Source: a virus (lineage: Duplodnaviria > Caudoviricetes). Taken from it: DNA of 64,000 nt. Where the stretch lies: IMG/VR virus record IMGVR_UViG_3300046786_000293, positions 160,001 through 224,000 of that record; one strand, 5' to 3'. The notes beneath the pieces are model-generated. The model had not been told where the DNA came from, ran no database searches, and saw nothing but the letters and a program-made list of their open reading frames with translations. Positions 25,659 through 26,358 of the stretch are shown piece after piece; positions within the stretch are counted from its first letter, which is position 1; every line of letters starts with the position of its first letter. Made by a program: the position numbers and the translations under genes.

Positions 25659-25826
25659 ATGAAAAGCATATATCACGGCCGCGCAGGCGCTAACTCGAAA
25701 TTACGAGGCAAGATAACCAAAATGCTTGCTTGTCGTTGCTGTGATCTATATAATTGGAAATGGTCCGAAAGGATTAAAGAAGCCACAAAACAAATTAAGG
25801 AGTTTAAAAATGGCACAATAGATTGA
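25659..25826 (+). CDS. Small basic Cys-containing protein (55 aa)
   Basis: ATG 4 nt after TAAATA; MKSIYHGRAG...ACRCCDL...; the 3' end overlaps the next gene start. Confidence 0.5.
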   Translation: MKSIYHGRAGANSKLRGKITKMLACRCCDLYNWKWSERIKEATKQIKEFKNGTID

Positions 25827-26358
25827 ATATGCTTGTGAAGATGTAGTCTTTCACTTTAACAAGAAACACTTAGAAGACAACACCGTTCCAATGTGGGTGT
25901 TAAAAACACATGGAGAGACTTATTACGTAAGTCATGTGGACTGTGCGGTATCTTGGAGCACCAAGGAAACTCCCGACAACAGTCACACAAAAGGCAGCAT
26001 CAAAGTTAAAAACGTTTTACTCGTTATTAACGAAAGCAACGAAGCTACAATTACCCAACTAACCGTATACGACAAAATTCGCTTGCGTAACCAAAAGCGT
26101 GGCATCACACGAATTATGTTTGGCTGGGGTGGCAAAATGCATACAGCGTTGGCCGCAAATGAGTTCAAACACACGCCCTTTAAGAACGTAGAAGGTAGTT
26201 GTGGCAGCAGTTATGTGATATGTGACTTGCTGAAGAAAGAAGAAGCGACTTTTGCCGCACTGAAATATAGTTTTCGTGTGCTACAGCCCAACGAAACTTA
26301 CTATAAGTTCTATGATAGCAAGGAAAAATGGATAGACGAAATCGACGAGGACGAATAA
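25810..26358 (+). CDS. Hypothetical protein with an in-frame amber codon at position 4 (MAQ*IEYACEDVVFHFNKKHLED...)
   Basis: AAGGAG 7 nt before ATG 25810; TAG 25819-25821; the frame then stays open into the annotated 25891-26358 ORF. Confidence 0.75.

What the first reader, a model, noticed from the sequence alone, without database searches (positions are those of the whole stretch)
25797..26358. Gene with a strong RBS and an in-frame amber codon at codon 4: candidate suppressor-gated expression system
Seen: AAGGAG-7 nt-ATG GCA CAA TAG ATT GAA TAT GCT TGT..., open for 178 further codons to TAA. The annotated ATG 25891 has no RBS, and the 23 codons after the TAG read as ordinary protein sequence (IEYACEDVVFHFNKKHLEDNTVP). 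The CUA tRNA is 2.1 kb upstream in the same island. The genome is not globally recoded, since ORFs of 1100-2000 codons have no internal TAG. Inference: the phage uses its own amber tRNA as a licence or timer so this protein is made only once the tRNA has accumulated, with a 3-codon abort otherwise. This is a minimal tRNA-plus-amber-gene circuit, distinct from genetic code 15 phages.
Basis: partly seen in the sequence, partly recalled or inferred. Interest (0 to 1): 0.9.

Follow-up and report, generated by a model that had tools for sequence, protein, structure and literature searches.

The report
Phage gene gated by amber-suppressor tRNA
A giant freshwater phage keeps a stop codon (TAG) as the fourth codon of one conserved gene and carries its own TAG-reading tRNA on the same strand; the same pairing recurs in about 80 diverged relatives, so it looks like a natural translational lock-and-key and not a broken gene.

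Summary

**In the window**
- AAGGAG, 7 nt, then ATG-GCA-CAA-TAG-ATT at 25797-25824 opens a 182-codon frame ending at TAA 26358.
- A tRNA with a CUA anticodon lies 2.1 kb upstream on the same strand.

**In relatives**
- Of 85 distinct homologous gene sequences, 81 have TAG at exactly this position.
- 76 of those 81 have a co-oriented CUA tRNA signature in the flanks. It is often only 23-60 nt upstream, under a single promoter.
- Three distant homologs place their ATG at that very codon and show no CUA tRNA.
- The tRNA family (68 distinct sequences) shows compensatory changes in 16 of 19 stem pairs.
- Residues 5-27 form part of a confidently predicted fold, so a start at ATG 25891 would truncate it.

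**Genome-wide**
- The genome is not recoded. TAG still ends 12-18 ORFs.
- Only one other gene (iscU) carries an internal TAG. That TAG also occurs in a related phage that has no CUA tRNA.

**Not resolved**
- The amino acid inserted at TAG.
- The function of the protein.
- The purpose of the gate.

I found no published description. This scan has noted the same gene family, and related TAG-gated PTH2 gene cassettes, on other DNA. I class it as a new variant of phage stop-codon recoding.

The parts
23569..23596 (+). Sigma-70-like promoter candidate (TAGACT, 16 nt, TATAAT) just before the tRNA
   Evidence: Consensus scan, 10 of 12 matches. Such sites are not enriched over shuffles, so it is only a candidate. 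In relative L070 a canonical TTGACA-17-TATACT sits 7 nt before the tRNA.
23606..23679 (+). Elongator-type tRNA with anticodon CUA (reads UAG), encoded CCA, discriminator A73
   Evidence: ARAGORN and Rfam tRNA 36.1 bits. The family has 68 distinct sequences; 16 of 19 pairs have compensatory changes and the TCTAA of the anticodon loop is invariant. It is the only CUA tRNA in the 338.5 kb genome and lies apart from the 39-tRNA island.
23761..25571 (+). Two genes lying between the tRNA and its client gene in this genome: a zinc-ribbon protein (23761-24519) and a PstS-like phosphate-binding protein (24579-25571)
   Evidence: Pfam PF13240 and PF12849; PHROG 5385. In 37 of 68 distinct relatives the tRNA ends within 350 nt of the TAG, so this 2.1 kb spacing looks derived.
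25623..25642 (+). Terminator-like hairpin followed by a T run, after pstS
25659..25826 (+). Conserved 55-aa small ORF (C-R-C-C motif) in another frame; its TGA (25824-25826) overlaps the ATT-GAA just after the TAG
   Evidence: Protein-level conservation in the window, L001, L012, L030, L044 and L045. Other relatives have a different upstream ORF or none (36 of 86 loci have an overlapping upstream ORF of any kind), so this ORF is not part of the core module.
25797..25812 (+). Shine-Dalgarno AAGGAG, 7-nt spacer, start codon ATG 25810
   Evidence: All 86 loci have an SD-like sequence and an in-frame ATG 1-9 codons before the TAG.
25819..25821 (+). In-frame TAG (codon 4), the gate
   Evidence: TAG in 81 of 85 distinct homologs. 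The third-position tree length of the gene is about 26 substitutions per site, yet there is no change at TAG.
25810..26358 (+). Client gene 'X': 182 codons including the TAG. N-domain is about residues 5-84 (25822-26061); C-domain is about residues 96-175 (26095-26334); TAA at 26356-26358
   Evidence: 1440 homologs. AlphaFold2 pLDDT 88, with residues 5-16 forming strand 1. The N-domain is also found alone, fused to PTH2, or fused to helical domains. The C-domain is ferredoxin/ACT-like, Z about 5 only.
25891..25893 (+). ATG of invariant Met-28, the start that table-11 gene callers choose; most likely not the functional start
   Evidence: No SD. M28 lies inside the conserved fold.

Best explanation
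Gene X (25810-26358) is an intact, conserved phage gene whose fourth codon, UAG, is read as a sense codon by the phage's own elongator tRNA(CUA) (23606-23679). Ribosomes start at the SD-ATG at 25810 and meet UAG three codons later. If charged tRNA(CUA) wins against release factor 1, they go on to make the 182-residue two-domain protein. If not, a tripeptide is released at almost no cost. Output of X is therefore conditional on, and graded by, the activity of the suppressor tRNA: a translational AND gate (mRNA AND tRNA). In the compact, probably ancestral layout seen in relatives, one sigma-70-type promoter makes the tRNA and the X mRNA as a single transcript. That wiring is a coherent feed-forward loop, which would delay and sharpen X synthesis relative to transcription. 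In this genome two genes and a terminator-like hairpin have come between the tRNA and X. SHOWN here: the TAG is conserved under purifying selection; it is tightly linked on the same strand with a structurally sound CUA tRNA; the N-terminal 23 residues after the TAG are needed for the fold; the rest of the genome uses the standard code. INFERRED: that the tRNA is expressed, charged and decodes this UAG; which amino acid it inserts (identity elements A73 and U35 would fit Lys or Gln; homologs have no conserved residue there, so the identity probably does not matter); and that the selected benefit is timing or thresholding.
For: (1) TAG stands at the same position, directly before conserved I-E-[YF]-A-C, in 81 of 85 distinct gene sequences from 154 loci. 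The loci were retrieved with peptide patterns from the gene body, so retrieval was blind to the TAG. (2) Synonymous sites are saturated (third-position tree length about 26 substitutions per site over 56 unique sequences), yet TAG never became a sense codon although 8 of its 9 single-base changes would do so. (3) 76 of 81 distinct TAG genes have a CUA tRNA or its signature in the flanks. All 130 ARAGORN-called tRNAs are on the gene's strand. Four that ARAGORN missed were confirmed with the Rfam tRNA model. Three of the five without one have less than 300 nt of upstream flank. (4) The distance from tRNA end to TAG is 60 nt or less in 13 distinct relatives and 61-350 nt in 24. In L070 the order is TTGACA-17-TATACT, tRNA, 20 nt, ATG-TCA-TAG. 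(5) Whole related genomes G001-G004 have exactly one CUA tRNA and X with TAG. G005 has neither. (6) Three distant homologs (45-49% identity) have ATG at the TAG position and no CUA tRNA in their flanks. (7) The tRNA family has 68 distinct sequences with compensatory changes in 16 of 19 pairs, an invariant CUA anticodon, the A36-A37-A38 run, an encoded CCA, and no initiator features. (8) The AlphaFold2 model has pLDDT 88 and residues 5-16 form its first strand. The N-domain (residues 8-84) is an independent homology unit that spans Met-28. (9) An independent sample shows the identical sequence.
Against: Nothing is experimental. No RNA run holds the locus, and no peptide, charging or tRNA expression data exist. 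TAG still terminates 12-18 ORFs in this genome, so an efficient suppressor would extend those proteins and many host proteins. No phage aminoacyl-tRNA synthetase for Lys or Gln/Glu was found, and no parental isoacceptor could be identified, so charging is assumed. One relative (L282) has X without TAG yet still carries a CUA tRNA, of a different look, 8.1 kb away. Two TAG-bearing loci with 3.8-7 kb of flank show no CUA tRNA. Here the tRNA is 2.1 kb away with a terminator-like hairpin in between, and no convincing promoter was found for X. The function of X is unknown, so the benefit of gating it cannot be stated.
Confidence: 0.75

Rival explanations
1. Feedback sensor: X acts on the translation apparatus or on the suppressor itself (tRNA, peptidyl-tRNA or RF1), and the early UAG lets X sense the balance of suppression against termination, as the in-frame UGA of prfB senses RF2. 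Decoding still needs the tRNA; only the purpose differs from the main explanation.
For: The N-domain of X is fused to a PTH2 peptidyl-tRNA hydrolase domain in P0173. It lies in the same operons as PTH2 genes that themselves carry in-frame TAGs (L302, L303; L303 also has a CUA tRNA). The C-domain has an ACT/RRM/EF-G-domain-like ferredoxin fold. The gate sits at the very start of the gene, as in prfB (own knowledge).
Against: Homologs without TAG exist in phages with no CUA tRNA in the flanks, so X has a role without the tRNA. The fold matches are weak (Z about 5) and non-specific. There is no PTH2 gene in this genome or in the flanks of the X family and no profile similarity of X to PTH2.
Confidence: 0.15
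2. Neutral ratchet: the suppressor tRNA is kept for another purpose (for example read-through of host or phage TAG stops), and the TAG in X is a tolerated accident with no regulatory meaning.
For: L282 keeps a CUA tRNA although its X has no TAG. TAG is a rare terminator here, 3.8% of ORFs of 100 aa or more, as in relatives of recoded phages (bioRxiv 10.1101/2021.08.26.457843).
Against: A neutral TAG should have reverted many times over a tree of about 26 synonymous substitutions per site; none of 81 distinct sequences did. The TAG comes inside a short added leader (ATG plus 1-4 codons) whose residues vary freely while TAG and the ATG are kept. The tight same-strand adjacency, often within one transcript, is not expected for unrelated functions.
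Confidence: 0.07
3. tRNA-independent expression: translation starts after the TAG, by termination-reinitiation at ATT 25822 (coupled to the upstream ORF's TGA) or at ATG 25891, and ATG-GCA-CAA-TAG is only a leader mini-ORF.
For: The small ORF 25659-25826 ends at TGA 5 nt after the TAG. Table-11 gene callers pick ATG 25891.
Against: The codon after TAG is ATC in four loci and GTC in one. 50 of 86 loci have no overlapping upstream ORF, and those present are unrelated to one another. A start at Met-28 removes strand 1 of a confident fold and a third of a conserved domain. This model gives no reason for the linked CUA tRNA or for TAG specifically (never TAA or TGA in 81 sequences).
Confidence: 0.04
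4. The genome uses genetic code 15 (TAG = Gln) throughout, or X is a pseudogene or sequencing error.
For: Database gene calls translate this TAG as Q.
Against: Those Q residues are the callers' choice of code on short contigs. In G000, G001 and G002, internal-looking TAGs are no more frequent than TAA or TGA controls, and TAG ends 11-21 ORFs per genome. TAG-less homologs have M, T, R or N at the position, not Q. The sequence is identical in an independent sample and the TAG is conserved in 81 lineages.
Confidence: 0.02

Closest known systems
Stop-codon-recoded (code 15, TAG to Gln) phages with suppressor tRNAs: crAss-like, Lak and others (Borges et al., bioRxiv 10.1101/2021.08.26.457843; Peters et al., PMC9523058)
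   Same: A phage-encoded CUA tRNA in a phage whose host presumably uses the standard code. An in-frame TAG in a phage gene. A proposed role in controlling when a protein is made. TAG is a rare terminator.
   Different: There, tens to hundreds of TAGs are spread over late, structural and lysis genes and align with Gln. Here a single TAG sits at a fixed position 2-5 codons (once 9) after the start of one gene, inside an added mini-leader, with no conserved residue in homologs. It is physically coupled to the tRNA (often in one transcript), in genomes that otherwise use TAG as a stop.
bldA tRNA-Leu(UAA) and TTA-codon genes of Streptomyces (own knowledge)
   Same: One dedicated tRNA is the only decoder of a codon that occurs in very few genes, so the tRNA gates their translation.
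   Different: There the codon is a rare sense codon in a cellular regulon, the tRNA and its targets are unlinked, and missing tRNA stalls ribosomes. Here the codon is a stop, so missing tRNA gives clean early termination, and the tRNA and its target form one module.
prfB (RF2) autoregulation through an in-frame UGA at codon 26 (own knowledge)
   Same: An early in-frame stop codon makes the yield of a protein depend on competition at that stop.
   Different: prfB needs a +1 frameshift and senses its own product. Here the frame is unchanged, a tRNA does the decoding, and no link between X and termination is shown.
TAG-gated PTH2-like gene cassettes next to CUA tRNAs, noted earlier by this scan (e1-933198, e1-3634854, e1-3446603, e1-5373740); no publication found
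   Same: A co-oriented CUA tRNA next to a gene with TAG within its first few codons, in otherwise standard-code phages, with the same TAG-ATT context. The N-domain of X is fused to PTH2 in P0173 and neighbours TAG-bearing PTH2 genes in L302 and L303.
   Different: The client here is not PTH2. This genome and the X-family flanks have no PTH2 gene, and X shows no profile similarity to PTH2.
Laboratory amber suppression (supE/supF-type tRNAs; amber-codon gating in synthetic biology) (own knowledge)
   Same: Same logic: protein is made only when a CUA tRNA is present. The 3' A after UAG and the A36-A37-A38 anticodon loop are features known to favour suppression.
   Different: This is a natural, conserved module. 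The tRNA is not recognisably derived from any isoacceptor of the phage.

Membership tests
Code-15 (TAG to Gln) recoded phage | Phage-encoded tRNA with CUA anticodon | tested here: met
Code-15 (TAG to Gln) recoded phage | Many in-frame TAG codons across (late) genes | tested here: not met
   Only X and iscU carry an internal TAG. Internal-like TAGs are no more frequent than TAA or TGA controls in G000, G001 and G002.
Code-15 (TAG to Gln) recoded phage | TAG positions align with Gln in standard-code homologs | tested here: not met
   TAG-less homologs have M, T, R or N there, or start there. 'Q' in databases is TAG read as Q.
Code-15 (TAG to Gln) recoded phage | TAG abandoned as a terminator | tested here: not met
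   12 of 314 ORFs of 100 aa or more (18 of 407 of 60 aa or more) end in TAG, with short continuations.
Functional elongator tRNA | Cloverleaf supported by covariation and a score above the Rfam tRNA gathering threshold | tested here: met
   16 of 19 pairs have compensatory changes in 68 sequences. 36.1 bits against a threshold of 29.
Initiator tRNA (TAG used as a start codon) | Unpaired 1-72 position and three G-C pairs at the base of the anticodon stem; SD spaced for initiation at TAG | tested here: not met
   G1-C72 is paired in 67 of 68 sequences and the anticodon stem lacks the GGG/CCC run. The SD is spaced for the upstream ATG, which is conserved in all 86 loci.
Pyrrolysine system (ARAGORN label 'tRNA-Pyl') | Atypical tRNA-Pyl architecture and pylS/pylBCD genes | tested here: inconclusive
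   The tRNA has a canonical TTCGA T-loop, GG in the D-loop and a 5-nt variable loop, unlike tRNA-Pyl (own knowledge). pyl genes were not searched for. The label follows from the anticodon alone.
tRNA-gated codon regulation (bldA type) | A dedicated tRNA is the sole decoder of a codon confined to very few genes | tested here: met
   One CUA tRNA per genome and one linked client.
tRNA-gated codon regulation (bldA type) | tRNA abundance or charging changes with time or state and limits translation of the target | not testable with these tools
   No RNA data hold the locus.
prfB-type autoregulatory stop | The gene product acts on decoding of its own in-frame stop | not testable with these tools
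   The function of X is unknown. The only lead is its association with PTH2.
TAG-gated PTH2 cassette (earlier scan findings) | A PTH2-fold gene carrying the in-frame TAG next to the CUA tRNA | tested here: not met
   No PF01981 match in the genome. No tblastn hit in the X-family flanks or in four genomes. hhalign of X against PTH2 gives probability 0.3%.

The most novel reading that the evidence does not exclude
The tRNA(CUA) plus TAG-leader pair is a portable, self-contained translational AND gate (a coherent feed-forward timer). Phages attach it to a small set of translation-related genes: X here, PTH2-like hydrolases and X-N-domain proteins elsewhere. X itself would work on tRNA, peptidyl-tRNA or termination, so the module both depends on and tunes UAG read-through. 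It would be a natural orthogonal-translation circuit and perhaps the first step on the road to full TAG recoding.
Probability: 0.25. Interest if true: 0.9.

Novelty: new variant of a known kind. Interest (0 to 1): 0.8.

Why it matters
- It gives a concrete, conserved client for the unexplained suppressor tRNAs of phages that otherwise use the standard code.
- It is a natural precedent for amber-gated gene expression, which has so far been a laboratory device.
- It suggests how recoding could begin: one tRNA and one client.
- It offers a family of 68 diverse natural CUA tRNAs, each with a matched reporter context, that could be tested for orthogonality.
- It matters for annotation. Table-11 callers truncate this gene at Met-28, while multi-code callers assign whole short contigs to code 15 and write 'Q' because of this single codon. 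Both errors are visible in public protein collections.

Tried and rejected
- **Phage collection search.** Megablast of 4 kb against the collection found nothing. A protein search found only N-domain relatives in Rhizobium, Sinorhizobium and Agrobacterium phages. Atu_ph07 has an opal suppressor, not an amber one (PMC6102473).
- **Function of X.** Pfam and PHROGs gave no family, even at E = 10. Foldseek against PDB gave nothing. VIA-align gave only generic ferredoxin/ACT/RRM-like matches (Z about 5) to the C-domain. AFDB and ESM Atlas gave only uncharacterised small proteins for the N-domain.
- **X as a divergent PTH2.** Rejected.
- **Amino acid identity.** Pairwise comparison with the phage's 40 other tRNAs and a covariance model of the CUA family gave no parent. 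CUA tRNAs score 74-88 bits. The best others, a CAU tRNA and a tRNA-Lys(UUU), score 63 bits or less. No phage LysRS or GlnRS/GluRS was found.
- **iscU as a second client of the tRNA.** Considered, because of its TAG at codon 39. Set aside because G005 has the same iscU TAG insertion but no CUA tRNA.
- **My own promoter guess.** The TTGCTT-17-TATAAT I read at 25725-25753 did not pass the consensus scan and I dropped it.
- **Expression.** No RNA run holds the locus.
- **Literature.** Five searches found no description of a single-gene amber gate.

Full report
**1. What is in the window**

Reading 25500-26500 shows AAGGAG at 25797-25802, a 7-nt spacer, then ATG 25810, GCA, CAA, TAG 25819-25821 and ATT 25822. 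The frame stays open to TAA 26356-26358, which gives 182 codons counting the TAG. Under table 11 the ORF list begins at ATG 25891, which is codon 28. No Shine-Dalgarno sequence precedes that ATG.

ARAGORN finds a single tRNA in the window, at 23606-23679 on the + strand, with anticodon CUA. Rfam's tRNA model agrees.

The window is bases 160001-224000 of a 338,510-bp phage record, GC 39%, estimated 97% complete. The major capsid protein is T4-type. It is 65-70% identical to those of jumbo phages of Vibrio, Sinorhizobium, Pseudomonas (PA5oct) and Cronobacter (GAP32). The DNA occurs in freshwater metagenomes from several studies.

**2. The TAG is real and deeply conserved**

A protein search with the read-through product found 1440 relatives. 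Many cover residues 1-27. In their alignment a 'Q' stands at the TAG position. Looking up the encoding contigs showed that this Q is TAG translated as Q by the gene caller. Proteins called from Met-28, or from the Val/Met at 'VFHFNKK', are table-11 truncations of genes that have the same TAG.

I then fetched loci from IMG/VR. The peptide patterns used came from the gene body, so retrieval was blind to the TAG.
- Every one of the first 86 loci (60-86% protein identity) has TAG directly before the conserved I-E-[YF]-A-C.
- Each has an in-frame ATG 1-9 codons upstream (mostly 2) behind an SD-like sequence.
- A second retrieval, seeded with the most distant homologs, extended this down to about 46% identity.
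- The pooled census is 154 loci and 85 distinct gene sequences: 81 with TAG, none with TAA or TGA, and 4 without a stop.

The gene's third codon positions are saturated. The tree length is about 26 substitutions per site over 56 unique sequences; this is a rough FastTree estimate. Eight of the nine single-base changes of TAG give a sense codon. A neutral TAG should therefore have been lost dozens of times. Even if the tree length is overestimated ten-fold, the chance of zero losses is about one in a thousand (my inference). The residues between ATG and TAG vary freely, while the ATG and the TAG do not.

An independent study's run contains a contig identical over 25600-26262. No run shows a variant at the TAG.

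**3. The tRNA travels with the gene**

- ARAGORN finds a CUA tRNA in the flanks for 68 of the 81 distinct TAG-bearing genes. All 130 instances across loci are on the gene's strand.
- A pattern search added eight more. The four of these that I examined with Rfam are true tRNAs that ARAGORN had missed.
- Of the five left over, three have under 300 nt of upstream flank.
- The gap from the tRNA's 3' end to the TAG is 60 nt or less in 13 distinct relatives, 61-350 nt in 24, 351-1500 nt in 14 and more than 1500 nt in 12. In five the tRNA lies downstream.
- In L070, from a 343.6-kb near-complete genome, a canonical TTGACA-17-TATACT promoter sits 7 nt before the tRNA. Twenty nucleotides after its CCA comes ATG-TCA-TAG-ATT. 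L047 is similar. In these relatives the tRNA and the mRNA must be one transcript.
- In the present genome a zinc-ribbon gene, pstS and a terminator-like hairpin lie between them.
- Across whole genomes, G001-G004 each have X with TAG and one CUA tRNA. G005 (348.7 kb, complete) has neither.

Three distant homologs (45-49% identity; L087/88, L089, L091/92) have ATG exactly at the TAG position with an SD before it. They show no CUA tRNA in the available flanks.

One exception is L282. Its X starts with ATG at that codon, yet a CUA tRNA with a different, canonical D-arm lies 8.1 kb upstream.

**4. The tRNA looks functional**

Sixty-eight distinct sequences fold into one cloverleaf. Sixteen of 19 pairs show compensatory changes, and the TCTAA of the anticodon loop is invariant. 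Other features:
- G1-C72 and C2-G71 are near-constant.
- The discriminator is A in 64 of 67 sequences.
- CCA is always encoded.
- The loop reads YU-CUA-AA.

These are elongator features, not initiator features. The A36-A37-A38 run and the A that follows UAG in the mRNA are features known to favour suppression (own knowledge).

I could not assign an amino acid. The short variable arm excludes Leu, Ser and bacterial Tyr. G3-C70 or A3-U70 excludes Ala. A73 with U35 would fit LysRS, and CUA tRNAs are often taken by GlnRS (own knowledge of E. coli identity rules). No parental isoacceptor emerges, and the phage encodes no LysRS or GlnRS/GluRS. TAG-less homologs have M, T, R or N at the position, so the identity of the residue is probably unimportant.

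**5. The protein needs its first 27 residues**

AlphaFold2 gives pLDDT 88, and residues 5-16 form the first strand with block pLDDT of 79-95. The exhaustive profile search shows that residues 8-84 are a homology unit of their own. This unit occurs as stand-alone proteins of about 85 aa and as the C-terminal half of proteins of about 180 aa. A start at Met-28 would cut that unit.

No function could be assigned. The C-domain is a generic ferredoxin/ACT/RRM-like fold with Z about 5.

One lead exists: an association with PTH2.
- In P0173 the N-domain is fused to a PTH2 peptidyl-tRNA hydrolase domain.
- In L302 and L303 an N-domain protein sits in an operon with a PTH2 gene that itself has in-frame TAG codons. 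L303 also has a CUA tRNA.
- This ties X to the TAG-gated PTH2 cassettes that this scan has noted in other phages.
- However, X is not PTH2, and this clade has no PTH2 gene.

**6. The genome is not recoded**

TAG ends 12 of 314 ORFs of 100 aa or more, or 18 of 407 ORFs of 60 aa or more. Their continuations past the TAG are short. Three scans were run:
- SD-ATG followed by an early stop;
- coding potential on both sides of a stop;
- coding potential between an upstream stop and the first ATG.

They find X, and one other gene, iscU at genome 65414-65809 on the minus strand, which has TAG at codon 39. Its TAG lies in a 9-nt insertion, GGT-TAG-ATA-GGC, after the first cluster-ligand Cys. Three of 80 viral IscU loci share the insertion. 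One of them is G005, which has no CUA tRNA. The iscU TAG is therefore not explained by the tRNA. A short Gly-to-Gly ribosomal hop, as that note proposed, fits better. In G000, G001 and G002, internal-looking TAGs are no more common than TAA or TGA controls.

**7. How it most likely works**

The best-supported reading is suppressor-dependent translation. X is made only when charged tRNA(CUA) out-competes RF1 at codon 4. Otherwise a tripeptide is released.
- Placing the gate at the very start costs almost nothing when it is closed.
- In the compact layout the same promoter feeds both inputs. This is a coherent feed-forward AND gate, which should delay and sharpen protein output (inference).
- The purifying selection on TAG argues that the gating itself is useful and is not a frozen accident.

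Rivals and their weights are listed separately. The most interesting one is a prfB-like feedback role, suggested by the PTH2 association.

**8. Comparison and novelty**

Phage suppressor tRNAs and TAG recoding are known, together with the idea that they time late genes (bioRxiv 10.1101/2021.08.26.457843; PMC9523058). This case fails three of four defining features of a code-15 genome. It shows something more specific: one fixed-position TAG in an added mini-leader of one gene, physically coupled to its tRNA, across 81 lineages of standard-code jumbo phages.

I found no published description. The scan itself has noted the same gene family in other genomes (e1-5364437, e1-5365640, e1-5365652) and the related PTH2 cassettes. 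I class it as a new variant of a known kind, with high interest.

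Noticed in passing
outside the window: G000:C1:65414-65809 (minus strand); L093:615-1010: A phage iscU gene has an in-frame TAG at codon 39 inside a 9-nt insertion (GGT-TAG-ATA-GGC) right after the first cluster-ligand Cys. Three of 80 viral IscU loci share the insertion (GGT-TAG-TTA-GGT), including G005, a complete related genome with no CUA tRNA. A short Gly-to-Gly ribosomal hop therefore fits better than suppression.
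   Followed up: partly
window 25659-25826 (+): A conserved 55-aa small protein (M-K-S-I-Y-H-G ... C-R-C-C ... N-G-T-x-D) overlaps the start of the gated gene. It is conserved at protein level in a subset of relatives (L001, L012, L030, L044, L045). Function unknown.
   Followed up: partly
window 39330-39462 (-): Strong match to the Rfam Polynucleobacter-1 RNA motif (112 bits against a gathering score of 37). This hints at a freshwater betaproteobacterial host or a phage-borne copy of that sRNA.
   Followed up: no
outside the window: G000:C1:111813-112106 (-) and 5387-6021 (-): An ArfB/YaeJ-like ORF of 139 aa with an RF-1 (GGQ) domain lies in the tRNA island, and a permuted tmRNA gene is present. 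Together with 40 tRNAs they form a ribosome-rescue and translation toolkit.
   Followed up: no
L309:1619-1699 (+): An Rfam freshwater-2 RNA motif (69.9 bits), ending in an SD and ATG, lies divergently next to the CUA tRNA of a related phage.
   Followed up: no
L302:238-665 and L303:4043-4473: [quoted passage not shown] L303 also has a CUA tRNA at 7193-7266. P0173 is a direct PTH2-N-domain fusion.
   Followed up: partly
L282:1357-1433 and about 9529-10083: A relative whose X gene has ATG instead of TAG still carries a CUA tRNA 8.1 kb upstream. That tRNA has a canonical D-arm unlike the rest of the family, so it may be an independent suppressor with another client.
   Followed up: partly
public protein collections (P0002, P0007, P0122 against P0025, P0044, P0013): The same gene is recorded in three forms: truncated at Met-28, truncated at the Val or Met of 'VFHFNKK', or full-length with a spurious Q. 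The form depends on which genetic code the gene caller chose for the contig.
   Followed up: yes
window 23761-25571 (+): A zinc-ribbon protein gene and a pstS-like phosphate-binding gene (an auxiliary metabolic gene) lie between the tRNA and its client in this genome, followed by a terminator-like hairpin at 25623-25642.
   Followed up: partly
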